A DNA stretch of 64,000 bases from an uncultured virus (IMG/VR IMGVR_UViG_3300042564_001198) (IMGVR_UViG_3300042564_001198), one strand, 5' to 3'. Counted from the first letter of the stretch, positions 26,573 to 61,291 are shown. Program-made: numbers and translations. The notes: generated by a model not told the origin, from the letters alone.

Positions 26573-26870
26573 TAATCTTGGCACAGAATAAACCCTTTGA
26601 AAACGGTGAACATCTCTTTGAGACAATACCGTGGGAAGATCGGTTGAATGTTCCCTCCGCTTGACGGAGTTCTACTGGATACCGATAACCCGTAACGACT
26701 ATCGAAACACTGTGAACGTGACAGAATGGAGTAGAGTAGCTACAAGCGTAGCGAAGCGGAGGGGTAGGTTACGTGAAAGAACCTACATGATATAGTCTGA
26801 GCTATATGGCAACATATAGATGCGGGTAAAGCCGCTGGTAGAGATTAGCGAACTCTGCTGAACACAACTG
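26573..26870 (+). ncRNA. Group I intron (298 nt, ORF-less) in nrdA
   Basis: P1 CUGUGU/GCACAG with U.G; P AAACGGUGAA, Q CAAUACCGUG, R AACGACUA, S GAUAUAGUCU; ends in G; splicing restores SNLC|MEI. Confidence 0.95.
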
Positions 26871-30722: not shown

Positions 30723-30730
30723 CACAAATG

Positions 30731-45209: not shown

Positions 45210-45844
45210 TAACCTGCTCCTGTGATACCATCAGGTAATCTCGCACCACCCAACCACTTATTAATTTGTTCTTCAGGTAATACCGCATCCGCACCGGCCC
45301 GAAATAAACTTTCAGGTTTAGTATTAGACTTACTACCGCTGTCTTTCTTTCCAGCAAGTGCATCAGCTTTAGCTTTTTCTGCGTTTACTGTATCATCAGA
45401 AGATTCCCCAGCTACTTCAACTAAAGAAGCTTTAGCTTTGTCTACGATACGTACTTGTTCAATTGACATATTAATACGCCAACTCCCAAGCCCTTCAACA
45501 ACACCTTTCTGTCCACTGAAGTCTGTAAACAAACAGTTCTTGTATGGAGATAAACGGTTGTCTAAGAACACCGTAAATAGTTCACGAGATTTACGTAAAG
45601 TATCTAAACCTTGAATGTAATCTTTGATACCTTTCTGTGGAGAGTTCTTAGTGAGATTGACAACTTCAGTGATCACACCAGATAATGTAAACGTAGAATT
45701 TTCAACAACAGAATGATCTGTAATAGAAGCCCCCGATTCAACGGGGAACTTCGTATTAGTATTTCTATGTTGAAACCCTACATCAGTGGTGGCTGTCAAT
45801 TCAAAGACATCACCAGCTTTTGTTTTGATGTAGAATACAGCCAT
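45209..45844 (-). CDS. Tail tube initiator / Dit-like protein
   Basis: TKFPVESGASITDH...LSGVI. Confidence 0.75.
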   Translation of the reverse strand: MAVFYIKTKAGDVFELTATTDVGFQHRNTNTKFPVESGASITDHSVVENSTFTLSGVITEVVNLTKNSPQKGIKDYIQGLDTLRKSRELFTVFLDNRLSPYKNCLFTDFSGQKGVVEGLGSWRINMSIEQVRIVDKAKASLVEVAGESSDDTVNAEKAKADALAGKKDSGSKSNTKPESLFRAGADAVLPEEQINKWLGGARLPDGITGAG

Positions 45845-46873
45845 TACCTTACTCCAACAGATTGCATGCCAGTCATACGCTCTAATTCCTTCTTCACACT
45901 TTCACCAGCTTTTTCTGGGTCAGGTGAATTGATTGTGATACTGATATTACCACCAACAGTATTTTGTGAATACCAAGATGTAAAGTCTTTCAATCCAGCC
46001 ATAGTATAATCGAAGGATGTTTTAGCAAAACCTTCCAGTGCCGAAAGTATTACTGAACCGTGTTCTGTCTGAGAAGCAACGGGCATATTCTTAGCGATGT
46101 CTTGCCCAAATTGAGCTAATGGCCCTACTGTGAAATCACCGCCAACAAGTTTAGCGTCTTCAGCACTACCCATACCCATCATCATTCGTCGTTGGGCGTG
46201 TACTTTCTTACTCTTTTCTTCAGACCAACCCTTATCATCAAACAAACCAACTACATCATCATCAAAGTATGCTCTGATTTCATCAAGTACACCTACGATT
46301 GTAGTCAGAATAACGAGAGGTGTTTTGAAAGCAGCAGCCATCACTAAACCTAAATTCTTCATATTAGTAATCAGAATAGGCATAGCCACTATTAAAGCCG
46401 CCAGAGGGTTATCAACAAACCATCCTATTGCCTGACCTACCGTTTCTACAGAACGTAAGAAAGAAGCAAACCATTGTGTAGCACCTCTCACTACAACTGA
46501 CAGTACATCAAACACTTTCTTGTATATTCTGCCAAGACGCTGTAGTGTATCTTCATTATTGTTAACCAGATCAGTTATTGTTTTGAAGAAGTTTTTCAGA
46601 CCTTCAGTAAAACCACCTTTATCTAAGTTCTCAGCAGCAGTTACAGAGAAAGCTGCTTTCATTCTGTTCTCTACAATACCAAGCTTATCAAGAGATTTAG
46701 TATAAGCGTCATTGACGTTTACCAACTTCTCCATTTGTAATACGAACGGAAGAATATATTCGGCACCAAGTTGTCCTTGCTCCATCATTTTAAACAACTC
46801 TTTAGCTGTTTTACCTGTGGATTTTTCTAAGGCTCTCATTGCTATTGGTAATCTGTCGCCTAGCTGTTCTTTA
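45844..46873 (-). CDS. Tape measure protein, exon 2
   Basis: Begins (T)-KEQLGDRLPIAMRAL...LFKMMEQGQL. Confidence 0.9.
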
Positions 46874-47030
46874 CATTATGTTCAGGAAGGGTCGTTAACC
46901 CTTCCCCGCTTTATTCAAGCTGCTTACAGTCTCCTGTAAGATCAGACCATATCTTCACCTTCAACTTAATGTTAAGGGTTCCCCATTTCGACTCACTTGA
47001 GTCTACGTCTTTCGACTGGCCGTTGAACGT

Positions 47031-47735
47031 TCAGAAAAATTCATCAGAAATGTTTTTATAACGAATCTTATATCTAATTCGTTTTATCTCTATCGTACTG
47101 AGCTTGTCATTGCTACTGAGTTTCGCAATTTCTTTATCACCCAATCCGTCTAAAATTCTATAACAAACCCACTTGACAGTATTCACAGAGAAGTCATTGG
47201 GATAGTTATGTTCTATTTTGTAAAGCTGCCTTATGTGGAAGTAACAGTCGCCGGCACGTATCAATCTTATAACACCTTTGGATGTGTTAACTTCCTTAGC
47301 TATATCACAGATTCTGTGTCCGTTGACAAGCATTTGACAAACTTTATGTACAGCGTCTTCAGTTAGACTCGCATTGTATAAGTCTGAGCCTTTACCTTTA
47401 AGTCCTGTAGAAACTGCGTGTCGTTGATTTTGACTGGCTGTTACCCACTCAAGGTTTTCAACGTTATTGTTTAAAGAGTTACCGTCTTTGTGGTTGACTT
47501 GCAGCTTTTTGTCTGGACAACCTTGCCATGCTTCAAGAACTAATCTGTGTACTTTTCTATTGTACACGACACCTTCTACGGACAATCTCACATAACAACT
47601 AGGATAATTATTTATCACCTTAATTGATTGTGCGATCTCTTTGTTTCTTTTTATATTAAAAACTTTACCACAAGCACTTACTGCATAATTTGGGTAATCT
47701 TTCAATACTATAACTTTTATCTTATTTACAAACAT
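47031..47735 (-). CDS. Intron-encoded NUMOD4-HNH homing endonuclease
   Basis: YPNYAVS..GKV, KVHRLV, VNHKDGNSLNNNVENLEWVT..QN..HA; AGGAG RBS. Confidence 0.92.
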   Translation of the reverse strand: MFVNKIKVIVLKDYPNYAVSACGKVFNIKRNKEIAQSIKVINNYPSCYVRLSVEGVVYNRKVHRLVLEAWQGCPDKKLQVNHKDGNSLNNNVENLEWVTASQNQRHAVSTGLKGKGSDLYNASLTEDAVHKVCQMLVNGHRICDIAKEVNTSKGVIRLIRAGDCYFHIRQLYKIEHNYPNDFSVNTVKWVCYRILDGLGDKEIAKLSSNDKLSTIEIKRIRYKIRYKNISDEFF

Positions 47736-47836
47736 TTCTGCTCCTACTGATTTTCAGAGAATTTTCTGCTTCGCTGCGGATTGTCTCTATTGTTGACGTT
47801 TTTACCATCACAAACACATTACTGTTTGCTTTGTAT

Positions 47837-47864
47837 ATTATACACGGTAGTCAACACCTGTCAA
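47837..47864 (-). promoter_or_regulatory. Consensus sigma70 promoter inside the intron, upstream of the HNH ORF
   Basis: TTGACA-N16-TATAAT. Confidence 0.6.
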
Positions 47865-47927
47865 GATTTCCCCGCAATTAAAGGAATATATTTTTCTGCA
47901 CATTTCTATGCAGCGAACCTAATTTTA

Positions 47928-49429
47928 AGTTCCTGAGCCATTACTTGTTGTTTAGAGAACATTTGTGCTACAGCTTTTACTGTACCAGCCATATCATCTT
48001 GTGACAACTGAAGAATAATACCAGACTTAGTTAATGATTCAAATGCTTGCTTAGTTTGGTCAAGAGAATATTTATCTTGCATTGCAGCACGAAGTTTAAC
48101 AAAGTCTTTAGTCGTATCTTTTAACGACAAACCATTTTGTACAATAACATCTTTCAGATAACCTACTGTAGCGGCAGCTTGCTCAGAATTATCTGACACA
48201 GCTAATACAGAAGCATTCATTGAATCTAATGCTTTAATCTGTTCTTTGAAATACGTAGTACCTGCAAACAAAGCATACAAACTAGCATACTCTCGCACCA
48301 TATTGCGTGTAGAGTCCTGTAAGCTACTCATTGCAGCAGCAGCACCCATACTATGCCTACGCTGTTTCTCAAGCTCGTGGTTCATCCTAGACAGTTCTTT
48401 CGTCACTGTTCTAAGCTGATCTATATTACCTGATGCAATAGCTGCATCAATCTTAGCACCACCAAGAGGACGATAGCGTTCTACATCTCTTGCTGCGCGA
48501 ACAAATGCGTCAGCACCTTTCTGTGTGGTTTGTTTCTGAGCGCCTTGTACTAACATCGACTGTTGTTGAGAAGTGTAGTTCTGAAAACCACCACCCTTCT
48601 TGATAGCGTTGAATGTGTTGTTAGTAGCAGAACCTGTTGGTGCTGTCAGCAATGTAGCTACACGAGCATTAGATTCTTTCAAATCTCTATTCAGTTTAAT
48701 TACAGTAGCACGAATGGATTTAATCTTTTCTAATGAACCACCACGAGCAGCTTGTCTTGCTGACAATAGAGCTTGTAATGCGTGTTGTCTTCCTTCGGGT
48801 CCACTAGACTTCAGATCACGGAAAGCTTGTAGGTTAGTGAGAGTACCTAGTGACCTGCGTTTACGTAATCGTTCGTTTGCAATACCTAAAGCCGACTGGT
48901 CAGATTGCATCTTACGATAGTAATTGCCCATAGCTTTAAGCTGAGGGTTCTGTTCATTATTCAATAATCCACGAACAGCTTGTTGTCTCTTTGCTGATTC
49001 TATAAAAGATTGTGATGGATTCTGTGCTGGTTTGGCTTTATTGTTTAAACGATACAACGCTTCTTGTCGTTCAATCGCTTTCTTCTGTGTCTTCTGTAAA
49101 GCTTTTTCAACAAGATTGAAGTCTCTAGCTTTTTGTTTAGCTAGTTTTTCTTGCAGTTTAATTTGAGCTTTGACATGACTATCCTGTAACGCAATAGATT
49201 GTTTTACAGTTTTCTTTTCAATGTCTTCTTTTTTCTTAGCTGTTGTTTCAGCAACTTTTACAGCGTTATCGGATATTTGCTTCTCAGCTTTTAATCCGTT
49301 TTTAACACGTTTAGCATCTACTCCAACAGCCAACTTTTCTAACGATTTGTGTAAATCTTGAATTTGAGATTTGACTTTTGATGTATCAAATCCCAAGCTG
49401 ACAATAAAATCTTCAATTGGGCTGGACAT
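47928..49429 (-). CDS. Tape measure protein, exon 1
   Basis: IEDFIVSLGFD start, helical; ends AVAQMFSKQQVMAQE(CT). Confidence 0.9.
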
Positions 49430-49704
49430 TATTTCTCCCGCAGTTTAGCATCCTTTCGATATGCTTCTTCTTTTGTATATTTGATTGTCAGATATTCTCG
49501 TAGTTTCAAGCATTCAATATATGTGTACACGTTCATTAATTCCCATGCACTCACTTTGAATTCAGTCATTTCAGATATTTGATAAAAGAACCAATCTTCA
49601 TCATCAAGAAGGGTGCCTTTCTTTATCGCAGCCAATACTTGATTTAAGTAGGGCTGGTCATGCTCTGAAACTTCTCTTGAAAACGAGAAATTAAACCCTT
49701 TCCC
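49429..49704 (-). CDS. Tail assembly chaperone frameshift extension (gpGT-like)
   Basis: -1 frame open from the GGGAAAG slippery site to the stop abutting the TMP start. Confidence 0.8.
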   Translation of the reverse strand, partial: GKGFNFSFSREVSEHDQPYLNQVLAAIKKGTLLDDEDWFFYQISEMTEFKVSAWELMNVYTYIECLKLREYLTIKYTKEEAYRKDAKLREK

Positions 49705-50087
49705 TTGAAAAGACTCCCGAAGTTCTGTTCAATAGCAAAGGCTACTAATTCAATCAACACTTCATATTGGCCCATGATAATATCAGCCAACTTAACTTGA
49801 ACACCATCTTTAACTAAATAAGCTAACAGACGATTGAAGATCATATCTTCTAAATTGATTTGGTCTAATTGTTGTAACAGTAAAAGTGCCATCTCACGGA
49901 ATGTTTTAGGTGCTCCATGAAACACATCATCATGTCGTGAAGCATCGAATGATTCACCCACTAACGGTAACAACACTTTAGATAATTCTACTGAGGTTTT
50001 GAAACCACTCATACCATCTAAGAGTTTAATTTGATATTGACTTCCGTCAATCTCTGTCATACGAAAATTATTTGCTGGCATTTGCAT
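49644..50087 (-). CDS. Tail assembly chaperone (gpG-like)
   Basis: Between tube and TMP genes; FAIEQNFG motif. Confidence 0.8.
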   Translation of the reverse strand: MQMPANNFRMTEIDGSQYQIKLLDGMSGFKTSVELSKVLLPLVGESFDASRHDDVFHGAPKTFREMALLLLQQLDQINLEDMIFNRLLAYLVKDGVQVKLADIIMGQYEVLIELVAFAIEQNFGSLFKGKGLISRFQEKFQSMTSPT

Positions 50088-50108
50088 TTGAAAGTTCTCC
50101 TTTGTTCA

Positions 50109-50681
50109 TTACGAGAATACTGATGTAATCTGTTTCCCAACAGACTTCACCGCTTCACCTACTTTACGGAATAGGATTTGCTCATTCGTCAATAATGAAT
50201 CATCTAGTTTAATGTTCTGGTTAGGCTGCATGTCAATACAGTACACCGACCATGTTGTAGCACCAGCCATATTCGTATAGGATTGGTCTGGATGCTTCTG
50301 AATGAATGATGATGTTGACTTCCAACTCACCATTAAGTTATAATCTGTAAACACTAATTGAGGAAGCTCAATAGGTTTTCTAGGGTCTTGCATATTACGC
50401 TGAATATCTAACAACCACTTATTGTTCTGACTCATCTGAAGTAGAGTGAATGTTACAATAGCGTCTTTGTTTGTTTGTCTCTGTAATGCCGTGTTACCAT
50501 CGATACCCTTTACTACGCCGATATTCTCAGCAGCGTAGGAAATGTTAACCATCTGGTCAGGAGCAAATTCAGTGATAGGTTGACTTCCTAATACTAAAGA
50601 AACTAACCTTGGGTTGTATACGGCAACCGACCTATCTTTGAATAGTGACCAACCACTACCGTTAAAGTTCAACACAATCAC
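50109..50681 (-). CDS. Tail tube-like paralogue
   Basis: YNPR.V.L...ITEFA...G.DG...TFTLLQ.S..N, parallel to the adjacent tube gene. Confidence 0.7.
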   Translation of the reverse strand: MIVLNFNGSGWSLFKDRSVAVYNPRLVSLVLGSQPITEFAPDQMVNISYAAENIGVVKGIDGNTALQRQTNKDAIVTFTLLQMSQNNKWLLDIQRNMQDPRKPIELPQLVFTDYNLMVSWKSTSSFIQKHPDQSYTNMAGATTWSVYCIDMQPNQNIKLDDSLLTNEQILFRKVGEAVKSVGKQITSVFS

Positions 50682-50691
50682 CTCTTAAAGT

Positions 50692-50714
50692 AAAAAGCCC
50701 CGACAAAGCGGGGC
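50692..50714 (-). terminator. Intrinsic terminator after tube gene
   Basis: GCCCCGC-TTT-GTCGGGGC + T5 on minus. Confidence 0.75.
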
Positions 50715-50723
50715 TAATCATTA

Positions 50724-51218
50724 CTAGCCTACACCAAGAAGTTCGGCTGCGGCTGCGACTTGGGACGCAATGCCGAGGGCTTGAGTGATTTCACTGTTAG
50801 AAGAAACAGGAATCATGTTAGAGACAAAGAATTGCCAGCTTTTCGCGTTCTGACCATCCGATAATGTTACCGGAGCAGCAGTTTTTAGGTGTGCGTCACG
50901 GCATTCATACAGGGTTGAACCAGATGGGTCTACAATGGTCATGTTCTCACGAACAATATCGTCAGCACGTTGCTGTGCAGCATAGATGTTTGATAAGTAT
51001 AAGTTACACTCAGCATTCTGTAACAGAGTGATTGTTACCATTGCTGTGTAGTTGGCAATCTTTGTAAGTGCCACATCGCCGGCAGCGCCCACAACCTCGT
51101 CAGTTAAGTCGGAGTTAGGGGTGATAGTAACGAATTCACCATCTGCGTAACCCGTGATCATAACCCCACCCCAAGAGATGCGCACACTTTGAGGTGAGTA
51201 AGTTTTAATATAAGCCAT
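50724..51218 (-). CDS. Tail tube protein (DUF3277-like)
   Basis: TYSP..V...ITGYADG...VGAAG...TITLLQ. Confidence 0.85.
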   Translation of the reverse strand: MAYIKTYSPQSVRISWGGVMITGYADGEFVTITPNSDLTDEVVGAAGDVALTKIANYTAMVTITLLQNAECNLYLSNIYAAQQRADDIVRENMTIVDPSGSTLYECRDAHLKTAAPVTLSDGQNAKSWQFFVSNMIPVSSNSEITQALGIASQVAAAAELLGVG

Positions 51219-51230
51219 TGTTTACTCCAA

Positions 51231-52577
51231 TTAAGCGTTAAAAGAAATTGCCAGTGTACCGGTGATGTCAATCAATTCGATTGAACCAGACAACTCAGCT
51301 TTGAAGTAACCTTCGTCCAACAGACCTAAACCTTTCTTCGCAGCGGATACGTCACGCTCATCAGGTAAAGTGATTAAGTAGTTGTCATTGATGAAGCTAC
51401 GGCGAACAAACAGATCCAGAGTTTTAGCAATGGTAGAACGAACAGCGTTGATACCGTTGTTGTTGTATGGCAGCTTACCGCCTTTCTGAGACAGTAACAG
51501 AGCAGTCAGGTTAGCTTTCATTTCATTCTCTAAAGCATCACGACCACGGATGTTGTCAATGCGCTCACCACCAGCAACCAGACCACCACGAGTAGCATTC
51601 TGACCACCTTCTAAACGAATGAATGTAGCATTACGAGCAGACAAATTATTCTGTTGTGTTTGTGTCAGGACATTACCGTCTACATTCTGAGAAGCAGCCA
51701 GAGCAACTACGTTGTTAGTCCAAATTACTGAACCAGCATCAAACGGAGCATTGTGACCTACGTAGTTTAATTCCACGAAGTCTTCATCAGCACGTTGATG
51801 ATACAAACCGAATGTACGGAAGTAACCAGCATCTGACAGCTTACCTAAGATGTCACCTGATACAGCAGCACCTTTAACGTAAGTACCGTAGTTAGTAGCA
51901 CCTTCAACAGCAACAGCATACAGTTTACTACGGGCTTCTACATCAGCAGCCATAGCTAATACCCATGCTTCTGAATGGTCTTCTGATGCAATGAAGTAGC
52001 AATCTGAGTCAGCGTCTAATACACGTTGCAGAGCTTGTGGAGCAGTAGCTGTAGAGGTATAAGAATCTGTTACGTTCAGTAGAGCAGTTACAGCAAACTT
52101 GTTAGTACCTGTAGGAGCGATTGTAACAACGCCAGTAGCTGCTGTAGCGGCAACTAATGCACCTACAGTAGATGCTTCAACAGCAGCAGCAATAGCTGTA
52201 GCGATTGTAGTAGTTGTATCTGAACCAGTAGCTGTAACAGAGATATTAGCCGATACAGCACCTGAAGCGATTGTGAAGCTATAAATCTTACCAGTAGCAA
52301 CAGCGGAAGGAGTCAGCTTTAAATCAGCTTCAATCTGACCAACTTTAAACGCTTTACCAACTGGGGTGTTAGCGAAGAATTGAGTAGCAGCTTTGTATAC
52401 ACTGTGAGTAGTAGGGAATACTTGACCAACAGATAAAAGATTAGAATAAGCGGTAACTACTTCCTGAGTGAAGCGGTGTTTCGCTAAGAATACCGGAGTA
52501 CCATAACCCTGACGGCTAACAGTAACACCTTGTAAAGAGATGGTGACATTTGCAATGTCGGTAATAGCACCAGCCAT
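51231..52577 (-). CDS. Tail sheath protein (DUF3383-like)
   Basis: I.DIANVTI...G..IDNIRG.D.L...KLPY...GI. Confidence 0.9.
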   Translation of the reverse strand: MAGAITDIANVTISLQGVTVSRQGYGTPVFLAKHRFTQEVVTAYSNLLSVGQVFPTTHSVYKAATQFFANTPVGKAFKVGQIEADLKLTPSAVATGKIYSFTIASGAVSANISVTATGSDTTTTIATAIAAAVEASTVGALVAATAATGVVTIAPTGTNKFAVTALLNVTDSYTSTATAPQALQRVLDADSDCYFIASEDHSEAWVLAMAADVEARSKLYAVAVEGATNYGTYVKGAAVSGDILGKLSDAGYFRTFGLYHQRADEDFVELNYVGHNAPFDAGSVIWTNNVVALAASQNVDGNVLTQTQQNNLSARNATFIRLEGGQNATRGGLVAGGERIDNIRGRDALENEMKANLTALLLSQKGGKLPYNNNGINAVRSTIAKTLDLFVRRSFINDNYLITLPDERDVSAAKKGLGLLDEGYFKAELSGSIELIDITGTLAISFNA

Positions 52578-52579
52578 TA

Positions 52580-54068: not shown

Positions 54069-54125
54069 CGGTACTCCATTCTTTAACTTCACCAGTAGTG
54101 TTATCCACCACTTTAATAATAGCCA

Positions 54126-54551
54126 TTACTTAATCTCCACCAGACCTCTGCGAGATTGCATAATGTCTGTCCAATCTTGTTGGTCATAGCCTGTGAATAC
54201 ATCTTGGTCTTCAATGACACGATTACGCTCACTGAGAGACACGCCACCGATATAAATACCAGCACTGTATCGTGATGTATTAGCTTTAACGAAGTCGTCT
54301 AGTAATTGCTTGTAGCGCTCATACAGACGTTTGTATTCGATTTCCACTTCACCAACTTTCTCTCTGTCAGCAAGTGTACTAAAATGTGCCTTGATTGCTT
54401 CCATACAAAGAATGGATGCTTTAACCACATCATTATTGTATTTAACCAAAGCAGAAGAAATTGCATTGTCGGTGATATGTTCACCTGAAGGGTCGCCTAT
54501 GTTAACCCTGACTTGAGCTAACTCACAGTTAAAGTCTAAATCAATTGCCAT
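54126..54551 (-). CDS. Head-tail adaptor
   Basis: VRVNIGD...ITD..I...REKVGEVE. Confidence 0.75.
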   Translation of the reverse strand: MAIDLDFNCELAQVRVNIGDPSGEHITDNAISSALVKYNNDVVKASILCMEAIKAHFSTLADREKVGEVEIEYKRLYERYKQLLDDFVKANTSRYSAGIYIGGVSLSERNRVIEDQDVFTGYDQQDWTDIMQSRRGLVEIK

Positions 54552-54568
54552 CTAATATTGTTCCTGTG

Positions 54569-54595
54569 AGAAAGAAGGGAGGGACAAGCCCTCCC
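54569..54595 (-). terminator. Intrinsic terminator after major capsid gene
   Basis: GGGAGGG-CTTGT-CCCTCCC-TTCTTTCT on minus. Confidence 0.75.
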
Positions 54596-54602
54596 GCCCC
54601 AA

Positions 54603-55679
54603 TTAAGACTTGGTAGCCTTGATGATTGTCAATGGAGACAACAGGTAATCACCAAAGTTACTTTCGTACATGATGTGAGTACCAGTGTGTTCATTGTCTG
54701 AACGCCATGCGTATTCTGGCAGAGCTACAGTGTTAACGTAAGACATAGTTTCCGCTGGAGCATAGCGACGAGCAAACATACCTTCAACACCGGCTGGCAT
54801 GATGTATGCTTCGTTAGTGTTAATCAGGTCAACACCACCAATCTTAGCATCGTACTGGATGTAAACGATGTCATCAGCGCCAACGTACATGCGATACTGT
54901 TTAGAGAAGTTAGCCAGACGTTTCAGCAGTGGGTCTTGACCCCACATGTCGGTACGGTCCACACGAGCTTGTTCTTCTTTCGGGTGATGGATACGATCTT
55001 TGAAGAAGTTACGACCACACAGGGCAACATAACCGGAAACGGTTTGACCATCTAACAGGTTTTCGTTGATTAATGCACGAGCATCTTCACCAACTTCTGC
55101 TGGATATTTAGTAGCGTCAGACAGTTGGAAGTTAACTGTTGGGCGAGCAGCAGCAGAAGTACCTGCGTATTCAGTATAGAAGTCAGTTACTGGAGCTGAA
55201 CCGTTAGGGACGTATGAAGTACCAGTGGTGATCAGGTGAGCTAAACACTTCTCTTGTAACAGGGCGAATGAACGGCGAATGTCACGAATGTCATTTGCTA
55301 CCAGACGATCCATTGAGTCCAGAGTGTCTTTAGTACCCGGCACTCGGCTACGCAGAGCGTCTTGTGGACGAATGTGTGTTTGAATACCGAATGAAGGGAT
55401 TTTGAATAAGTGAGTTTTTGAACTCTCACGAGCATCAAAGTTATCACCACGGTCAGAGTAAGACTTGTCACTTGGTAAAGCAACACGCATTACTTTGTCG
55501 TCATGTTCCCAAGTAGAGGTATTCATATACTCTACATCCAGAGGGATTAACTCAGTCAGCAGAGAAGGGATGTTAGGGCTGTTCTCTAACAGAGTGCTTG
55601 AGAAGTCATGCAGACTGTTCAAGTTACCCAGATCACGAGTTACAGATTTTTGAATTTGGAAACGACCGAATTGAGCCAT
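54603..55679 (-). CDS. Major capsid protein (lambda gpE-like)
   Basis: 358 aa, FKIPSF, ALCG..FF...HP, YAPAET...VNT, ESN. Confidence 0.9.
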   Translation of the reverse strand: MAQFGRFQIQKSVTRDLGNLNSLHDFSSTLLENSPNIPSLLTELIPLDVEYMNTSTWEHDDKVMRVALPSDKSYSDRGDNFDARESSKTHLFKIPSFGIQTHIRPQDALRSRVPGTKDTLDSMDRLVANDIRDIRRSFALLQEKCLAHLITTGTSYVPNGSAPVTDFYTEYAGTSAAARPTVNFQLSDATKYPAEVGEDARALINENLLDGQTVSGYVALCGRNFFKDRIHHPKEEQARVDRTDMWGQDPLLKRLANFSKQYRMYVGADDIVYIQYDAKIGGVDLINTNEAYIMPAGVEGMFARRYAPAETMSYVNTVALPEYAWRSDNEHTGTHIMYESNFGDYLLSPLTIIKATKS

Positions 55680-55714
55680 TATTTAGAATCCTTATTGAGA
55701 AATAATAACGGCTA

Positions 55715-56209
55715 TTAGACGCCGTAGAAAGTAGAAGTAACAGCGCCCAGTACAGACTTGACAGCGATGTTTTGTTTTTCGAGTTGTGCAATCAGAGAGT
55801 TCTGTTTAGCTGCGTTTAAGCCAGCATCAAAACGTAAGCCTGATTTCTTAACAGAAGCAGCACCACGGAACAGCAGAACCACTTTGTCACCAGCAGTAGT
55901 AACAGATACGTCACCACGAACATCACCCAGAGCATCGAAGCCAACTACGACACCAAATTTAGCGCCGTTAGCTACAGCACCATCGTTCGCTGGAACGTTG
56001 ACTGCATCACCAGTGAAATCACCAGCAACAGGTTGACGGTAAGCTACCAGAGTGTTGTCCCAAATAACAACTTGACCTACACGGTAGGTTTTGGTAGAAG
56101 CTTCATCAACGTTTACGTTATGTTGGTAGTTGAAGTTTTCAACCAATGGGAAGATGTCCTGCATCAGAACATCTGACAGAACTGGACTAGAAGTTGCAAT
56201 AACAGCCAT
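55715..56209 (-). CDS. Head decoration protein
   Basis: Position upstream of MCP, LFRGAA.V. Confidence 0.75.
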   Translation of the reverse strand: MAVIATSSPVLSDVLMQDIFPLVENFNYQHNVNVDEASTKTYRVGQVVIWDNTLVAYRQPVAGDFTGDAVNVPANDGAVANGAKFGVVVGFDALGDVRGDVSVTTAGDKVVLLFRGAASVKKSGLRFDAGLNAAKQNSLIAQLEKQNIAVKSVLGAVTSTFYGV

Positions 56210-56228
56210 TATTGTTTATCCTTTATAA

Positions 56229-57167
56229 TTAGTAAGGTTTGTTTAATTCTGCTGCGAATGCAGCTTTCTTAACTTGTTCTGGAGACACTTCATCACCAGA
56301 TGTGGTTTCTTCGAACAGGTCAGATTTTTCTACCAGTTCTTTTTTAGCTTGCAGAGATTTAATCACTACTTCAGCCGCTTCTGGGCTGGTGGCTTTCATT
56401 ACGAATAATGATTTAGCAACAGTAGTTAATTCTTCAGCAGATACTAAGTCTTTCAGAGTTTCTTGGAATGCTTCAAATTCAGCAGCTTCTTTTTCTTCTT
56501 TAGCTTTCTGTACTTGATTACGCAGTTCAACTACTTCCACTTCCAGAGCAGATTTCTCAACTTTGAGTTGAGTAGCTTCTGCTACGGCAGCTTCGTGAGC
56601 TTGCTCGACTTGTTCTAATTGCTCGTAGCGAGCTTTTTCTACTTGGATTTTCAAGGGGTCTTCCTCGTTTTGTTGTTGTAAAGATTTCTCGATTTGAGAC
56701 TGGATAGTAGTGATAGCAATAAAGTCTTCATCACTAATTGTTTGGTTTGGGTTTTCGCTGAGAGACTTCATAATAGTGAACTGAGCTACACGCTCTGTAA
56801 TCCACTTCTCATGTTCTTTCTCCCAATCGTATTCACCATCAGAAGATTCACGTTCAGCTTTGTTTGCTTCAAACTCTGTTTCAAAACCTAACAGCTTTGT
56901 AAGGGTTTCCGCGTCAGAACTCCACATATCAAAGAACTTACGTAAGAATTCTTCCATTGACATTGTTACAGTAATCTGTTCTAATGCTTTCTGTACTTTC
57001 ACTACGTCAGTTGGTTGGATACCAACATTGGTCCCTTTTGTACAAATTAGTTTGTACCCATTCGCGGCATTTCCTTGGTCTTTAGACACAAGGGCTACAT
57101 GAGCACCATGTGTATCGAAGTCAAAGTTGAAAAGCTTACGCTTTGCTTTCTGTTTGCTAATTGTCAT
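56229..57167 (-). CDS. Capsid scaffold-like protein
   Basis: HVALV...AANG, EEFLRKFF.MW..DA..L, acidic coiled coil. Confidence 0.7.
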   Translation of the reverse strand: MTISKQKAKRKLFNFDFDTHGAHVALVSKDQGNAANGYKLICTKGTNVGIQPTDVVKVQKALEQITVTMSMEEFLRKFFDMWSSDAETLTKLLGFETEFEANKAERESSDGEYDWEKEHEKWITERVAQFTIMKSLSENPNQTISDEDFIAITTIQSQIEKSLQQQNEEDPLKIQVEKARYEQLEQVEQAHEAAVAEATQLKVEKSALEVEVVELRNQVQKAKEEKEAAEFEAFQETLKDLVSAEELTTVAKSLFVMKATSPEAAEVVIKSLQAKKELVEKSDLFEETTSGDEVSPEQVKKAAFAAELNKPY

Positions 57168-57691
57168 TTAATTTCCTGCCCGTAAGCTTCACAATAAACG
57201 CTCAAGCCTGTGAACGTACCATCCTTCACTTTAGGCCAAATTACATCTTCAGCTAATTCATCTGGTTCAGGGAAGTACCATTCTTGCAACCAAGTGTTCT
57301 TGCGAATAGTCACTTGCTCACCTTCTGGATTCTCGATAATAAATTCAACTGGAGAAGTATAAGACTGCTCGATAATGGCTAAGTCAGAATCAAGCATTAC
57401 GCTGTGCATCAGATTAGCTTTCATGCAGTGAACGTTGAATGAGCGACAAGCTTCGATAACGTCTTGGTCAAAGTAAACATCACCATGTAAGTCTTCTGTT
57501 TCTGCCTCAGACTCTTGTGGAGCTAATACAACGAACAATGCTCGACGTTCTTCAACGTCCACAGACTTACGTACCTGAACACCTTCTGGTGTAGTGACAT
57601 CGCTCTCAATAACTTGCTTATGGTTTTCACTATCACCGATAGCCATGTCCAACAAGTCAGTAAACATTTTGATTAGTTTTTCTTTGTTCAT
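57164..57691 (-). CDS. Prohead serine protease (XkdF-like)
   Basis: DLHGD, NLMH, TW, VKDGTFTGLSV. Confidence 0.85.
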   Translation of the reverse strand: MNKEKLIKMFTDLLDMAIGDSENHKQVIESDVTTPEGVQVRKSVDVEERRALFVVLAPQESEAETEDLHGDVYFDQDVIEACRSFNVHCMKANLMHSVMLDSDLAIIEQSYTSPVEFIIENPEGEQVTIRKNTWLQEWYFPEPDELAEDVIWPKVKDGTFTGLSVYCEAYGQEIK

Positions 57692-58440
57692 GCAGAATTT
57701 GCCATATTTCTTGTAGAGTTAGGATTCTTCAACTGACTTGTACCTGTACCACTAGAACCACCACTCTCACCAACACGGGCTGTGTCAGGGGTGAGCTTAG
57801 CTAACAGTTCTTCTTCAGTGAGCTTCTCGATCTCTGTTGTATCGAACCCAGTCATCTTGTGTGCTTGAATAATGATTGACTTATCTTTAACCATCATACC
57901 AACACCAGCCATCAACTGAACCACTTTAGCATTGTTCTCTGGGTCAGCTTCATCCAGCTCACCAAACGTCATCACTGGCATATCATCTTCTTCAAGTTTC
58001 AGTTCATTAATGTCTGCAAGAGACTTAACAAACTCACGCTCAAATACTGTTTTAATATACATCAGCATACGTTCCATGTAGAAAGCATGGACACTGCGAG
58101 AACTATCTGATAGACTGTGTGAACCTGTATCACCTTGACCAACCAGAAGGAAGGAAGCACCTAATACGTTAAGAATATCTTTCTTACGAGCTTCGATTAG
58201 TTCAGAGGTTTTATAGGCTTTACTGCCACCATCGACACCCTTCAGTTCAACATCGTAAACGTATTTACCGTTACCTGTTTCACCATGTGTATCTGATCCT
58301 AAGAGGATATATGTTTGATCGCCAGCATGAATAGCAGCAGCATTCTTTTGTAATGCTCTGAGTGTTTTTGCTTCTAAGCTCTGATCATCTTCAGCAGCTT
58401 TATTGATGTGGTCATTCGGGACACGTAATACAAGGACACC
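57688..58440 (-). CDS. Portal protein, exon 2
   Basis: GVLVLRVP...ILNVLGASFLLVG...GSHSLS. Confidence 0.9.
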   Translation of the reverse strand, partial: GVLVLRVPNDHINKAAEDDQSLEAKTLRALQKNAAAIHAGDQTYILLGSDTHGETGNGKYVYDVELKGVDGGSKAYKTSELIEARKKDILNVLGASFLLVGQGDTGSHSLSDSSRSVHAFYMERMLMYIKTVFEREFVKSLADINELKLEEDDMPVMTFGELDEADPENNAKVVQLMAGVGMMVKDKSIIIQAHKMTGFDTTEIEKLTEEELLAKLTPDTARVGESGGSSGTGTSQLKNPNSTRNMANSA

Positions 58441-58696
58441 CATTTGTTCAAAGTGAGTCGTTAATTCACTCCAGCGACATTATTCGCTTCTCTATGTTTC
58501 CATAAAGTTCAGACTATATCTTCATCCTATAAGGATGCTTCCCATTTCGAGCTACTTAGCCCTACGGCTTACGCCTAGTCGTTACACGTTCTCATTACTG
58601 AGCTTCGCTCGGTATTGTCTCCAACATTACTTGGTAAGAGTTTCACCGAATTAGAAAAGTTATTCAATGTGCATTACTACACAAGGGGGCAGTTCT
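58441..58696 (-). ncRNA. Group I intron (256 nt, ORF-less) in portal gene
   Basis: P1 GGGU/GCCC; P AAUUCGGUGAA, Q CAAUACCGAGC, R AACGACUA, S AAGAUAUAGUCU; terminal G; splicing restores SKDLG|GVLVLR, 505 aa. Confidence 0.93.
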
Positions 58697-59461
58697 ACCC
58701 AAGTCCTTGCTCACCCCAACAACCTCATAGCTTGTAATCATTTCAAGCTCTTTCCAAGATTTAAAGCAGTCGTATAGATCTGATTTACCTTGAGGGTTGT
58801 TACCTGTACTGTTCCAACTAAACAACATAAACTTTTCTCTACGAACAAATTTATCTGTTAAGTTTTGTACAGTGAAAGGGTTGATATTACTTTGTCCAAT
58901 AACTGTAGCTGGCATCCATTGATGTAAACCAACTAAGTCTCGCTTCAATACAGCATCATCAAACACCCACTCACGAACACTCTTTTGAGCGCGAGGAGCA
59001 AGCTTTGCGTATTTGTATTTATATTTACCAGACCACTTAATACTATCATTCTTTGCAAAGACTTTCTCAAGCCAAGCGAATCCATATTTACGGAATGTGA
59101 TAATATTTGTGATGGCATCGTACCAACTGTTACCGACGAAGTTCTTGATGTTCCAGTTGAGGAAGGCAGCAAAATCTTTTGACTCTTGACTTCCTGATAC
59201 ACCTGCGATAAACTTTGTAGCAAGTAGGGACTTCGTAAGGAATACTTCACCAGCGGTTAAGCCTTGGCTAACAGCAGAGGTAGAAGCCATCTTATCGTAT
59301 GTGGTGAGGCTATGAGGAAACTGCAATTCTTTCTTAGCAGATTCTTCAATGTAGCCCCCGATGGCTTTTAGATATGGATTGCCGATCTCCCCTAAGCGAA
59401 GACGACTGTCTGAGCTAGAGGGATTAGATTCAGCTTTCTCAATTTGAATTGTTTCTGACAT
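58697..59461 (-). CDS. Portal protein, exon 1
   Basis: LGEIG, YGFAWLEKV, KLAPR.Q, NPQG.S.L. Confidence 0.9.
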
Positions 59462-59473
59462 TATCCCCTCAGA

Positions 59474-60940
59474 TTATGAATTAAGGTCATATTGCGCTTT
59501 GATTGTGGGATCGTTGAGAGCGGTTAGTTTTGGGACTGTGTAAGTTTTGACACGGCACAGGAAATTAAAACAATCTGCTGTTGTATCAACCCAATCATCT
59601 TTGATTTTTCTGCTGCTGCGCCACTTACCGTCTTCGTTTGGTTGAAATTGTTCAAGCTCTCTGTAGAAAGCATTCAGCGTCCTAGTATCAGGAAAACTAT
59701 CTTCTACTATAAACACCAGACCAGATTGTGCCGCAGATAAGAAAGGTTCAAAGCGAGAAGATTTACTTCTTGTACCAGATGCGGCAGAAGGGTATATTTT
59801 AAATCCTTCGGCAACAAACTTCTTGGCAATCTCTTGAAACACTTGCTTTCCGTCTGCTCCGGCATCCTGAGCTAATACTACTTTAGTCTCTCTACCATCA
59901 TGTTTGGCTTGCAGTAGCATTAATTGGTCTCGCTCACCGGCAGCTTTTCTAAACTTCCCATAAACTTGTTCGTGTTCATCGAAAGTAGTTTTAGCAAAGT
60001 CACCATATATGTAGTAAAATCCATTACTGTCTTTAGCCATGTGAATACAAGCGGTAAAGTCTGCGTCTGTATTTTTAATCTTAGGACTATACTCTGTGTT
60101 AGCTTTATCCCAAGCTACTACTCTTTGACAACCTTCCGGTAAGGATTTTTTGACCCTTTCCCCATGTTGTCCCCTGAGCCATTTTCTGTCGAAGAATTTT
60201 ATCTTGTCACTCTCGCTGTGCCAATTTCCGAAAAGCTGGCTGGCTCTTTCATGCTCAGGTAAATTTTGAAGTTCAGACAGATAGCGCGGGTTGAGTCGGA
60301 TGAGTATTGGGTTATCAAAAATTGTTAGTTGCACAAAGCAAAACTTTTTAGGTGGTACATACATTTGCTCATTAGTGGACGGGTTGGTTATATACACCGT
60401 CTCCGGCATGTTTTCACTAAACCATTCTTCACTATCGGCAAATATAAAGTCATTATCTTTTACTACGTACCAACGAATTTGTCCATTCTTAGCCTTATCA
60501 ACAAAACCCTCATCATCGAGATACCACTTAACTAGGTCATATACCCAGTTCTCCCTGTGGGGGTTACACGTTCCGATGCAAACAGAGTTCATGTTCGCTT
60601 CCGAGCGCAAAGTTGTAAGTAAAAATAAAAGAGCCTCTTTCGGGACTTGGGTGATTTCATCCACACCCAAATAGCTAAGTTGCAAGCCGCGCATTTTTTC
60701 AGCGTCAGAAAGATTTGAAATAGCTTTGTATCGAATCTTACAACCAGAAGGAAATTGATAATATGGTGGTGGAGATTTGATAGGTCTTGCACCAAGGAGA
60801 GGGTAGTATTTGTATGCAGTCTCCCACAAACCACCAGCACCTGTCAATTGGTCATACTGAACACGGACAAACATTCCGTTGAATCGTGGATCATCTCGCC
60901 ACATTAGAGGTATCTGAGTTATTACTTCAGACTTGCCGCC
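59474..60940 (-). CDS. terL: Terminase large subunit, exon 2
   Basis: GGKS, Walker B GVDE, GTCNP, AWD.A, DD.VD nuclease motifs. Confidence 0.93.
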   Translation of the reverse strand, partial: GGKSEVITQIPLMWRDDPRFNGMFVRVQYDQLTGAGGLWETAYKYYPLLGARPIKSPPPYYQFPSGCKIRYKAISNLSDAEKMRGLQLSYLGVDEITQVPKEALLFLLTTLRSEANMNSVCIGTCNPHRENWVYDLVKWYLDDEGFVDKAKNGQIRWYVVKDNDFIFADSEEWFSENMPETVYITNPSTNEQMYVPPKKFCFVQLTIFDNPILIRLNPRYLSELQNLPEHERASQLFGNWHSESDKIKFFDRKWLRGQHGERVKKSLPEGCQRVVAWDKANTEYSPKIKNTDADFTACIHMAKDSNGFYYIYGDFAKTTFDEHEQVYGKFRKAAGERDQLMLLQAKHDGRETKVVLAQDAGADGKQVFQEIAKKFVAEGFKIYPSAASGTRSKSSRFEPFLSAAQSGLVFIVEDSFPDTRTLNAFYRELEQFQPNEDGKWRSSRKIKDDWVDTTADCFNFLCRVKTYTVPKLTALNDPTIKAQYDLNS

Positions 60941-61150
60941 CAAGTCTCAGTTATGTGTTCGCTAGGCACTTCCACCGTTTCCGGTGTTGTCGGACTATAT
61001 CTTATGCAATAAAGCATCCCTACGTTTTCATGTCGCTTGACATTACTTTAGTCTCTACACCCACGAATCTAATCGTTCGGCTCGGTATTGCCCTCGTCTA
61101 TACGTTAGGGTTTCACCGACTTAGCAGGGTTACGTGGCAGCGGTCTATTT
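60941..61150 (-). ncRNA. Group I intron (210 nt, ORF-less) in terL
   Basis: P1 CGUGGU/GCCACG; P AAGUCGGUGAA, Q CAAUACCGAGC, R GAGACUA, S AAGAUAUAGUCC; terminal G; splicing restores Walker A GGSRG|GGKS, 535 aa. Confidence 0.93.
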
Positions 61151-61291
61151 ACCACGCGAACCACCGATGATCATGAAATCTACTTCGGTAGCTCTTTTGA
61201 ATACAAGTTCTTGCATTGGAGAACAAGGTCCAATCTCTACAATCTCTTTTGGAGGAGCCTTGTTCGTTACTTTAGGTCTTTTGTTACTCAT
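61151..61291 (-). CDS. terL: Terminase large subunit, exon 1 (47 codons; absent from ORF track)
   Basis: AGGAG RBS; MSNKRPK...IGPCSPMQE...DFMIIGGSRG. Confidence 0.9.

What the first reader, a model, noticed from the sequence alone, without database searches (positions are those of the whole stretch)
45844..61291. Three essential virion-assembly genes (terL, portal, tape measure) each need self-splicing
Seen: with nrdA, four group I introns lie in this window, three of them in the late operon. Each has P1 with the U.G pair, P/Q/R/S elements and a terminal G, and removal yields in-frame 535, 505 and 843 aa proteins. Unspliced messages stop within 0-11 codons. The nrdA, TMP and portal introns share a 3' hairpin with a TTARCGA loop followed by TGAACA, and two hairpins between P7 and P3', suggesting one subgroup (IA2-like). 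Known: most characterised phage group I introns sit in DNA-metabolism genes. Inference: morphogenesis depends on three splicing events, which could act as a GTP/Mg-sensitive or timing gate, or may simply reflect heavy intron invasion.
Basis: partly seen in the sequence, partly recalled or inferred. Interest (0 to 1): 0.75.

Follow-up and report, generated by a model that had tools for sequence, protein, structure and literature searches.

The report
Self-splicing introns in phage virion genes
A lake-water phage really does carry mobile self-splicing (group I) introns inside its DNA-packaging, portal and tail tape-measure genes, but close relatives lack them one by one and the same layout is already documented in the cholera phage ICP1, so this is ordinary selfish DNA and not a new control system.

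Summary
On the minus strand, terL (intron 60941-61150, 210 nt), the portal gene (58441-58696, 256 nt) and the tape-measure gene (46874-47927, 1054 nt, with an HNH endonuclease ORF) are each split by a group I intron. A fourth lies in nrdA (26573-26870, plus strand). All four have a P1 helix with U.G at the 5' splice site and a terminal G. Removing them gives open frames of 535, 505, 843 and 723 aa, colinear with uninterrupted homologues.

The kind is known. The terL intron sits in the Walker A codons, as does its homologue in Vibrio phage ICP1. There, splicing of terL and of a TMP gene with an HNH-bearing intron was shown by RNA-seq and RT-PCR (PMC10448857). As in ICP1, a free-standing endonuclease gene lies beside terL exon 1.

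In IMG/VR relatives the portal site is empty in 10 of 16 loci and the TMP site in 5 of 9, in independent combinations. This fits homing-driven invasion and not a conserved splicing "gate".

The portal site may be undescribed in print. This scan has reported similar multi-intron phages on other DNA (e1-6026410).

Verdict: a new member of a known kind, of low to moderate interest.

The parts
61151..61291 (-). terL exon 1 (47 aa, ends ...MIIGGSRG, the first half of the Walker A P-loop)
   Evidence: It aligns with the N-termini of the uninterrupted TerL of phages H101 and F88.
60941..61150 (-). terL group I intron, 210 nt, no ORF
   Evidence: RF00028 47.7 bits, E 1.4e-9. P1 has U.G at the splice site. 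P10 (CCGCU with the first exon-2 bases GGCGG) was read by eye. The intron ends in G. Covariation on 5 homologues including ICP1: 91.8% of cells paired, 26 of 42 pairs compensatory.
59474..60940 (-). terL exon 2 (488 aa, starts GGKSEV...)
   Evidence: Terminase_6N and Terminase_6C. phrog_979, E 3.8e-131..
61344..62306 (-). Free-standing endonuclease gene immediately upstream of terL exon 1; candidate homing endonuclease for the ORF-less terL intron
   Evidence: phrog_681 'endonuclease' E 9.5e-64 and phrog_559 'HNH endonuclease' E 2e-30. DUF4379 zinc finger E 9.6e-7. Weak CapR (0.0029) and T5orf172 (0.012) matches, both below the Pfam cut-offs.
58697..59461 (-). Portal exon 1 (255 aa, ends ...GVSKDLG)
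   Evidence: Portal_Mu profile 38-150. phrog_113 27-240..
58441..58696 (-). Portal group I intron, 256 nt, no ORF
   Evidence: RF00028 80.6 bits, above the gathering score. P1 U.G. P7.1, P7.2, P8, P9, P9.1 and P9.2 in the fold. Exactly these 256 nt are absent from relatives L024 and L025 and from contigs of three RNA libraries.
57688..58440 (-). Portal exon 2 (250 aa, starts GVLVLRVPND)
   Evidence: Portal_Mu profile 170-329. phrog_113 241-422. The spliced product aligns without a break across the junction with the H101, PH357 and ICP1 portals.
47928..49429 (-). Tape-measure exon 1 (ends in phase 2 at ...QVMAQEL)
   Evidence: TMP_3 profile 8-112. phrog_23370..
46874..47927 (-). Tape-measure group I intron, 1054 nt
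   Evidence: RF00028 28.2 + 20 bits in the window and 34.2 + 20.1 bits in the identical G001. P1 U.G. The 3' half folds with z = -4.0. Exactly absent from L037, L038 and L043.
47031..47735 (-). Intron-encoded HNH homing endonuclease (234 aa). By eye it lies in the P6 loop, with an AGGAG ribosome-binding site upstream.
   Evidence: HNH_3 E 3.4e-13 and NUMOD4. phrog_59 E 3.3e-47. 70.6% nucleotide identity over 168 nt to ICP1 ORF80, the HNH gene between the TMP pieces of ICP1.
45844..46873 (-). Tape-measure exon 2 (starts (L)KEQLGDRLPIAMRAL...)
   Evidence: TMP_3 profile 122-182. phrog_7817 429-612, following 254-421 in exon 1..
26573..26870 (+). nrdA group I intron, 298 nt, splitting the active-site motif SNLC|MEI
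   Evidence: 43.5 bits in the identical G001. Missed by cmscan on the window. RNR barrel profile 2-212 and 218-427 in the two flanking ORFs. P1 z = -4.6 with U.G. The product is 723 aa.

Best explanation
Four mobile group I (IA-type) self-splicing introns have invaded conserved codons of terL (the Walker A P-loop), the portal gene, the tape-measure gene and nrdA. The host genome is a complete, roughly 93-kb freshwater phage distantly related to Vibrio, Pseudoalteromonas and Aeromonas myophages.

Inferred by homology: after late transcription each intron folds into the P1-P9 ribozyme core. An external guanosine attacks after the U of the P1 U.G pair. The freed exon 1 then attacks after the terminal G, joining the exons in frame.

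Inferred mode of spread: homing during co-infection. The TMP intron carries its own HNH endonuclease. The ORF-less terL intron is probably mobilised by the free-standing endonuclease gene next to exon 1 ('collaborative homing', as proposed for ICP1). The ORF-less portal and nrdA introns are either derivatives that lost their endonuclease gene or are moved in trans.

The introns are tolerated parasites sitting in sites the phage cannot afford to lose. They are not an evolved checkpoint.

Shown here: the sequence and structure features, the exact boundaries, and the presence/absence pattern. Inferred: catalysis, homing, and which nuclease moves which intron.
For: - Rfam hits for all four introns.
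- U.G at every 5' splice site and a terminal G.
- In-frame products colinear with uninterrupted homologues.
- Covariation in the terL-site family, which includes the experimentally spliced ICP1 intron: 91.8% of cells paired against 32-42% when partners are slid; 26 of 42 pairs have compensatory changes, including the P7 pseudoknot; 0 of 500 shuffles reach the observed score.
- Portal site in IMG/VR relatives: occupied in 6 of 16 loci. Two are the window's own genotype, three carry the same 256-nt intron at 96% identity, and one carries a 1013-nt intron with a 240-aa HNH ORF. The other 10 are empty.
- TMP site: occupied in 4 of 9 loci. Two are the window's genotype and two carry different 240-243-aa HNH ORFs. 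The other 5 are empty.
- Combinations differ between genomes. The G002 and G006 fragments have the portal intron but not the TMP intron. G003 has TMP, nrdA-like and two terL introns but no portal intron. G004 has terL plus hits about 9-10 kb downstream of the portal, where a TMP gene would lie by analogy (position only, not checked).
- The empty sites of L024 and L025 are identical to the window's exon flanks.
- An 81-nt stretch of the terL intron is 96% identical to Vibrio phage 424E50-1. No TerL in the phage collection exceeds 60% identity to the window's, and tblastn found no terL match in the 424E50-1 fragment fetched. This suggests horizontal transfer.
- HNH ORF in the TMP intron and an endonuclease gene beside terL exon 1.
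- Homologous ICP1 terL and TMP introns splice in vivo (PMC10448857, passages read).
- The intron-bearing genotype is a complete genome with terminal repeats. It stands at 0.97-1.00 word share in 10 lake metagenome runs, though those are flagged as possible sources. It therefore looks like a viable phage.
Against: - No direct splicing evidence for this phage.
- The exon-exon joints seen in three RNA libraries come from relatives about 95% identical, and intron-less DNA alleles exist. Those joints may be DNA-level empty sites and not spliced RNA.
- Three of the four introns score below Rfam's gathering threshold.
- The portal P1 hairpin alone is not better than shuffles (z = -0.89).
- The T5orf172 and CapR matches of the neighbouring nuclease are below the Pfam cut-offs. 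No nuclease can be assigned to the portal or nrdA introns.
- Presence/absence shows the introns are dispensable in the lineage. It does not exclude a modulatory effect where they are present.
Confidence: 0.88

Rival explanations
1. Splicing as a regulatory gate. The three late-operon introns have been co-opted so that virion assembly proceeds only when GTP, Mg or translation status allows efficient splicing. This would tie burst timing to host physiology.
For: All three interrupted genes are essential, and unspliced frames stop within 1-10 codons, so the yield of virions must scale with splicing efficiency. The idea of introns as 'molecular on-switches' is discussed for the Bastillevirinae (PMC11878797, passage). 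A T4 study whose title links splicing to translation and growth state appears in a reference list I saw; I did not read it.
Against: Relatives with 87-99% identical portals and an 81% identical TMP lack the introns precisely, and intron sets vary independently between genomes. No conserved feature was found beyond the ribozyme cores and endonuclease genes. Nothing in the sequence distinguishes these introns from ordinary homing introns.
Confidence: 0.07
2. Genes in pieces. The inserts are degenerate and do not splice, and the exon ORFs are translated separately and assemble as split proteins, as with the HEG-split nrdA of phage Aeh1 (cited in PMC10448857).
For: Exon 2 of terL and of the portal each begin at a possible in-frame start codon (TTG 60943, ATG 58443). 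GenBank records of relatives annotate the pieces as separate CDS.
Against: terL exon 1 is 47 aa and ends in the middle of the P-loop. The ribozyme cores are intact and covary. The homologous ICP1 terL and TMP transcripts are spliced. ICP1's terL exon-2 CDS is annotated as having a poor ribosome-binding site.
Confidence: 0.03
3. A defective or dead genome. The interruptions are disabling insertions in a non-viable phage or an assembly artefact.
For: None specific. The window comes from a metagenome and no isolate is known.
Against: The same sequence is found in an independent complete IMG/VR record with terminal repeats and in two further contigs at 100% identity. It is also held in many lake metagenome runs. 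All frames are restored exactly by removing the predicted introns.
Confidence: 0.02

Closest known systems
Vibrio phage ICP1 terL intron with adjacent T5orf172 homing endonuclease, and ICP1 TMP introns with an HNH-3 endonuclease (Barth et al. 2023, PMC10448857; passages read)
   Same: - The terL intron is homologous: 69% identity over 78% of the query in about 100 ICP1-type records. It sits in the same Walker A codons and shares covarying helices.
- An endonuclease gene lies next to terL exon 1 and not inside the intron.
- The TMP gene is split in the same TMP_3 region, with a related HNH gene in the intron.
- Splicing of both ICP1 genes was shown by RNA-seq and RT-PCR.
   Different: - ICP1 has three TMP introns; this phage has one.
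- ICP1's portal is uninterrupted.
- By that paper ICP1's nrdA carries an intein, whereas this phage has a group I intron.
- The TerL proteins are only about 27% identical.
- The host and habitat differ (lake water).
Staphylococcus phage Twort orf142 (tail tube) introns and related Twort-like phage introns (Landthaler and Shub 1999; seen only as a reference and in passages of PMC11878797)
   Same: The portal intron matches Twort and other staphylococcal phage introns at 67-74% identity over 75-97% of its length. They too are ORF-less IA-type introns in a late virion gene.
   Different: The gene, host phylum and insertion site all differ. Twort has three introns in one gene with exon skipping.
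terL introns of rV5 (PMC3606486), Bastillevirinae such as SIOphi (PMC11878797), Moonbeam and LL-H (PMC4299906), Shewanella phage KASIA (PMC8541194) and Jug phages (PMC12880540); passages read
   Same: The large terminase gene is split by one to three group I introns. Several of these cases have RT-PCR, in vitro or metatranscriptome evidence of splicing.
   Different: I did not compare their insertion sites with the Walker A site. Most carry the endonuclease gene inside the intron.
Cluster J mycobacteriophage capsid and minor-tail introns (PMC3706429, passages read)
   Same: Group I introns in virion structural genes, present in only some members of the cluster and spliced during late expression. 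One carries an endonuclease gene and one does not.
   Different: The phages are unrelated, the genes differ, and there is one intron per gene.
Unannotated portal intron of Pseudoalteromonas phage H101 (KR534323.1; found here)
   Same: A group I intron (77.1 bits, above the gathering score) lies directly after the N-terminal portal CDS, in the phage whose TerL is the closest in GenBank (43%).
   Different: The site differs, at about residue 315-330 of the portal against residue 255 here. The H101 sequence is uninterrupted at the window's site.

Membership tests
Group I catalytic intron (Rfam RF00028) | Covariance-model score at or above the gathering score (50 bits) | tested here: met
   Portal intron: 80.6 bits, E 6.9e-19.
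Group I catalytic intron (Rfam RF00028) | Covariance-model score at or above the gathering score, for the terL, TMP and nrdA introns | tested here: inconclusive
   terL 47.7 bits (E 1.4e-9). TMP 28.2 + 20 bits in the window and 34.2 + 20.1 bits in G001, with the model broken by the 705-nt ORF. nrdA 43.5 bits in G001 and no hit in two cmscan runs on the window. All are below 50 bits but far below chance E-values.
Group I catalytic intron | P1 helix pairing the exon 1 end with an internal guide, with a U.G wobble at the 5' splice site | tested here: met
   MFE hairpins put the last exon U opposite a G in all four. z-scores: terL -2.4, TMP -2.8, nrdA -4.6, portal -0.9 (the portal hairpin is not significant on its own).
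Group I catalytic intron | Terminal G, and excision that restores a frame colinear with uninterrupted homologues | tested here: met
   (last bases, 535/505/843/723 aa). Colinearity: TerL; portal; TMP. Nucleotide-exact empty sites.
Group I catalytic intron | Conserved core helices P3-P9, including the P3/P7 pseudoknot, kept through compensatory changes | tested here: met
   terL-site family, 5 sequences: 42 pairs, 91.8% paired, 26 pairs with changes on both sides, P7 with 3 of 5 pairs compensatory; slid controls 32-42%. Caveats: only 5 sequences, and most of the structure came from RNAalifold on the same alignment. Not repeated for the other three introns.
Group I catalytic intron | Guanosine-dependent self-splicing activity | not testable with these tools
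   Only indirect support. The homologous ICP1 introns splice in vivo. RNA-library contigs show the exact portal exon join but may derive from intron-less relatives.
Subgroup IA2 (as in T4 td/nrdB/sunY and Twort; definition recalled, not from a call) | Extra hairpins P7.1 and P7.2 between P7 and P3' | tested here: inconclusive
   Two hairpins appear there in the MFE folds of the portal and TMP 3' halves, and there is a 29-nt insert in the Rfam alignment. terL shows one hairpin. No subgroup-specific models were available.
Mobile (homing) intron | An associated homing endonuclease gene, and presence/absence polymorphism at a fixed site | tested here: met
   HNH ORF in the TMP intron. Endonuclease gene beside terL exon 1. 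HNH-bearing variants at the portal and TMP sites in relatives. Occupied versus empty: portal 6 versus 10 of 16, TMP 4 versus 5 of 9. No nuclease was identified for the portal or nrdA introns of this genome. Cleavage and homing themselves were not tested.

The most novel reading that the evidence does not exclude
In this phage the yield of three indispensable virion proteins is set by ribozyme efficiency. The introns therefore act, secondarily, as a physiological throttle on late gene expression, for example slowing assembly in GTP-poor or poorly translating lake hosts.

A more modest variant concerns one intron lineage, marked by the P9.2 AUUARCGA-loop hairpin plus UGAACA. It has jumped between at least four unrelated gene sites (nrdA, TMP, portal, and terL before Walker B) within one phage clade. 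That would make the clade a natural system for studying ectopic intron transposition, and it includes a portal-gene homing site that I did not find described.
Probability: 0.08. Interest if true: 0.6.

Novelty: new member of a known kind. Interest (0 to 1): 0.27.

Why it matters
The main value is for annotation and for the natural history of selfish elements.

Gene callers split these genes into fragments. ICP1, PH357, phiA009, 424E50-1 and H101 are all deposited with terL or portal pieces annotated as separate or hypothetical CDS. Exact splice coordinates here give correct 535-, 505- and 843-aa proteins.

The clade offers a tidy population-level picture of homing:
- the same sites filled, empty, or filled with different HNH genes;
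- sequence patches diverging right next to the insertion sites;
- exon identity dropping well downstream of the portal intron, in the last third of exon 2.
This agrees with the published idea that nucleases mark boundaries of genetic exchange (PMC10448857).

The portal-gene site adds one more essential gene to the list of phage intron targets. None of this changes how phage late gene control is understood.

Tried and rejected
- cmscan of the window at E <= 1 did not report the nrdA intron. It was recovered only through the search of the identical record G001 and by eye. A blank Rfam scan is therefore not evidence of absence here. Likewise, the proven ICP1 terL intron and the PH357 intron did not reach E <= 0.01.

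- The genome search 'own' failed because the window's assembly is not held. I used the 100%-identical G001 instead.

- The search for related loci with TerL exon 2 returned only two identical contigs. terL relatives were reached through the portal loci and the fetch from genomes.

- Read laying. Contigs of RNA libraries X18 and X20 (one study) and X24 (another study) join 58440 to 58697, exactly the predicted portal junction. I do not count this as splicing evidence. The contigs are from relatives about 95% identical, intron-less DNA alleles exist, and RNA libraries can hold DNA. No contig of these runs bridged the terL or TMP junctions. The relatives diverge there (loose ends at 59540/59550, TMP replaced in part). 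Uncovered parts of these runs say nothing.

- I considered a further intron or split in the DNA polymerase, because a GIY-YIG gene follows it. The 823-aa polA ORF looks complete and the nuclease is free-standing.

- I considered the shared 3' module as something special to this phage. It also occurs in introns at other sites in relatives and in Aeromonas phage phiA009, and staphylococcal phage introns align almost to the 3' end. It is a lineage trait of the ribozyme.

- Literature. Searches for group I intron with portal protein or portal listed no paper whose title or abstract start describes a portal-gene intron. I read only the listings and passages of a few papers, so this is a weak negative. 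I could not read Riipinen and Alatossava 2004 (JCL1032, two late genes); it appeared only in a reference list.

Full report
WHAT IS THERE

The late genes of this window run on the minus strand. Pfam and PHROGs identify three interrupted genes:
- A large terminase: ORFs 61145-61291 and 59474-60943, with Terminase_6N/6C and phrog_979 at E 3.8e-131.
- A Mu-type portal: ORFs 58664-59461 and 57688-58443. Portal_Mu profile positions 38-150 are followed by 170-329, and phrog_113 positions 27-240 by 241-422.
- A tape-measure protein: ORFs 47906-49429 and 45844-46839. TMP_3 positions 8-112 are followed by 122-182, and phrog_7817 positions 254-421 by 429-612.

Between the TMP pieces lies a 234-aa HNH endonuclease ORF at 47031-47735 (HNH_3 E 3.4e-13, NUMOD4, phrog_59 E 3.3e-47).

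ARE THE INSERTS GROUP I INTRONS?

Rfam's RF00028 model, with a gathering score of 50 bits, gave these results:
- Portal insert: 80.6 bits, E 6.9e-19 on the whole window.
- terL insert: 47.7 bits, E 1.4e-9.
- TMP insert: 28.2 bits plus a partial 20-bit hit in the window. In G001 it gave 34.2 and 20.1 bits. G001 is a complete 93,434-bp IMG/VR record with terminal repeats whose fetched stretches are 100% identical to the window.
- nrdA insert: 43.5 bits in G001. Two cmscan runs on the window itself missed it. It lies between two ORFs that carry ribonucleotide-reductase barrel positions 2-212 and 218-427.

Exact boundaries were worked out from the sequence and checked in a script:

| Gene | Intron (window coordinates) | Length | Spliced product | Junction |
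|---|---|---|---|---|
| terL | 61150..60941 | 210 nt | 535 aa | GGSRG\|GGKSE |
| portal | 58696..58441 | 256 nt | 505 aa | KDLG\|GVLVLR |
| TMP | 47927..46874 | 1054 nt | 843 aa | QEL\|KEQLGDR (phase 2) |
| nrdA | 26573..26870 | 298 nt | 723 aa | SNLC\|MEI |

None of the products has an internal stop. Unspliced frames stop 1, 10 and 7 codons after the 5' splice site in terL, portal and TMP.

Each intron ends in G. Each 5' splice site follows a U that pairs with a G in a P1 hairpin. The z-scores are -2.4, -2.8 and -4.6 for terL, TMP and nrdA. The short portal P1 (-0.9) is not significant alone. In terL, the bases just 5' of the guide sequence (CCGCU) can pair with the first exon-2 bases (GGCGG) as a P10. 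This I read by eye.

Folds of the 3' halves (z -3.0 to -4.0) show P7 enclosing two small hairpins before P3' in the portal and TMP introns, followed by P8, P9, P9.1 and P9.2. It occurs exactly three times in 64 kb, at the 3' ends of the nrdA, portal and TMP introns, against 0.09 expected from shuffles.

INDEPENDENT SUPPORT FOR THE BOUNDARIES

- The uninterrupted TerL proteins of Pseudoalteromonas phage H101 (43% identical, the best of 1272 phage records) and Vibrio phage F88 read straight through the Walker A motif at the junction.
- The spliced portal aligns without a break across residue 255/256 with the portals of H101, PH357 and ICP1.
- In IMG/VR relatives L024 and L025, exactly the 256 predicted portal-intron nucleotides are missing, and the flanks are identical to the window's exon ends.
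- In L037, L038 and L043 the TMP alignment accounts for every exon base and none of the 1054 intron bases.
- Contigs from three RNA libraries in two studies also join 58440 to 58697. These contigs come from relatives about 95% identical, and intron-less DNA alleles exist, so I do not treat the joints as proof of splicing.

HOW IT MOST LIKELY WORKS

These are ordinary mobile group I introns. The comparative pattern points to homing.

- Portal site: of 16 IMG/VR loci with a portal relative, the site is occupied in 6. Two are the window's own genotype. Three carry the same intron at 96% identity while nearby exon segments range from 84 to 99%. One carries a 1013-nt intron with a 240-aa HNH ORF. 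The other 10 loci are empty; one of these covers only residues 173-504.
- TMP site: of 9 loci, 4 are occupied. Two are the window's genotype and two carry different 240-243-aa HNH genes. The other 5 are empty; one of these is partial.
- Independent combinations: the G002 and G006 fragments have the portal intron but an uninterrupted TMP. The complete genome G003 has no portal intron. It has TMP and nrdA-like introns, and two terL introns, one at Walker A and one just before Walker B. G004 has a 210-nt intron at the same Walker A site, plus hits about 9-10 kb downstream of the portal, where a TMP gene would lie by analogy; I did not check the gene there.
- Local divergence: the first 100 nt of portal exon 2 are 77-92% identical between genotypes, while neighbouring segments are 93-99%. 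In L023 and L026 the exon identity drops further downstream. Most of the last 400 nt of exon 2 no longer align, and the protein is 92-96% identical over exon 1 but 77-78% over exon 2. Both features are expected around sites of nuclease-driven gene conversion. This is my inference.

THE CLOSEST KNOWN SYSTEM IS ICP1

The terL intron has homologues in 118 phage records, 109 of them Vibrio phages. All ICP1-type isolates listed carry it, between a 33-aa ORF129 that ends ...FYGGA and the annotated terminase ORF128, which starts ...AGGGKS. This is the same P-loop site.

A five-sequence alignment (window, G004, G003, ICP1, PH357) supports P3, P4-P6, P7, P7.1, P8 and P9:
- 91.8% of cells are paired, against 32-42% when the partners are slid.
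- 26 of 42 pairs have changes on both sides.
- 0 of 500 shuffles reach the observed covariation score.
The caveats are that there are only five sequences and that most of the structure was derived from the same alignment.

Barth et al. 2023 (PMC10448857; passages read) showed by RNA-seq and RT-PCR that ICP1's terL is spliced. [quoted passage not shown] A T5orf172 endonuclease gene sits next to terL exon 1, an arrangement they discuss as collaborative homing.

The window repeats this layout:
- The 320-aa ORF at 61344-62306, directly upstream of terL exon 1, matches phrog_681 'endonuclease' (E 9.5e-64) and phrog_559 'HNH endonuclease'. It has weak, sub-threshold CapR and T5orf172 matches.
- The TMP-intron HNH gene shares 70.6% nucleotide identity over 168 nt with ICP1 ORF80, the HNH gene between ICP1's TMP pieces.
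- The 3' exon of the ICP1 TMP and both junctions in Aeromonas phage PhAER-4 align with the window's junction (QVMAeEL | ...eQ.P.AM).

OTHER PRECEDENTS READ AS PASSAGES

- rV5 terL in three segments (PMC3606486).
- Bastillevirinae terL introns spliced in vitro and in vivo (PMC11878797).
- Moonbeam and LL-H terL (PMC4299906).
- Shewanella phage KASIA terL, by RT-PCR (PMC8541194).
- Cluster J mycobacteriophage capsid and tail introns (PMC3706429).
- Jug phages, with 18.5 introns per genome on average (PMC12880540).
- The portal intron itself resembles the Twort orf142 (tail tube) introns at about 73% identity.

Earlier notes of this scan describe similar multi-intron phages on other DNA (e1-6026410, e1-243393, e1-273345; e1-1998611). 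They agree with my reading but are not independent evidence.

WHAT MAY BE NEW

I found no paper describing a group I intron in a portal gene (searches; listings and a few passages only). Portal introns do exist unannotated in GenBank. H101 has a 77.1-bit group I intron directly after its N-terminal portal CDS, at a different site.

The 3'-module lineage occupies at least four unrelated sites in this clade and its neighbours: nrdA, TMP, portal, and terL before Walker B. This suggests repeated ectopic moves.

THE 'GATE' IDEA

Because the exons cannot encode working proteins separately, virion yield must depend on splicing in this genotype. That dependence is an inference, though a strong one. 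Nothing suggests it has been selected as a control. Close relatives do without each intron, and all conserved features are those of the ribozyme and its nucleases. I give the gate reading about 7%.

VERDICT

The finding is real and accurately described. It is a new member of a known kind, of low to moderate interest. It is useful for annotation and as a clean natural example of intron turnover in virion genes.

Noticed in passing
window 7372-8466 (+): A 364-aa ORF with OrfB_IS605 and Cas12f1-like TNB domains (E 4.3e-24). This is a TnpB-type gene inside the phage genome.
   Followed up: no
window 14234-15274 (+): A free-standing GIY-YIG homing endonuclease gene (Pfam E 1.5e-10; phrog_314 'homing endonuclease') starts 9 nt after the stop of an apparently complete 823-aa family A DNA polymerase gene.
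   Followed up: partly
L018 (Pseudoalteromonas phage H101, KR534323.1) 1121-1419: An unannotated group I intron (77.1 bits, above the gathering score) lies between two 'hypothetical protein' CDS. The first of these is the N-terminal two-thirds of the portal. It is a portal intron at a different site from the window's.
   Followed up: partly
L044 / L045 (records G003, G002): These relatives have a divergent terL (32-39% identity) with two introns. One is a 242-nt intron in the Walker A codons (...LIMGG|AAGSGKS). The second scores 83-97 bits and lies just before Walker B, the site also used in Aeromonas phage phiA009.
   Followed up: partly
window 26573-26870 (+): Method note. cmscan in 'evalue' mode on the window twice failed to list the nrdA intron, although the same sequence scored 43.5 bits through the genome search. 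In one search the experimentally spliced ICP1 terL intron also stayed below E 0.01.
   Followed up: yes
window 58341-58440 (-), first 100 nt of portal exon 2: This patch is 77-92% identical between genotypes, while neighbouring segments are 93-99%. Some of the differences are synonymous. The intron-less L020 also differs in the last exon-1 bases. It looks like a co-conversion or nuclease-avoidance tract.
   Followed up: partly
window 46924 joined to 58502 in run X24: One low-depth RNA-library contig joins the 3' core of the TMP intron to the 3' core of the portal intron, with 10 unmatched letters between them. This is most likely another intron with the same conserved core, or an assembly chimera.
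   Followed up: no
window 30674-30832 (both strands): Weak Trp_leader and rsmX hits on both strands centre on one GC-rich hairpin (AAGCCCGC...GCGGGCUUU) with U/A runs on both sides. This looks like a bidirectional terminator where the plus-strand early/middle genes meet the minus-strand late genes.
   Followed up: no
L003 (Vibrio phage 424E50-1, OX241437.1), record end: The record is cut inside terL. A 38-aa 'terminase large subunit' CDS and the first part of a homologous intron (96% identical over 81 nt to the window's) lie at the record's end, beside a GIY-YIG nuclease gene.
   Followed up: partly
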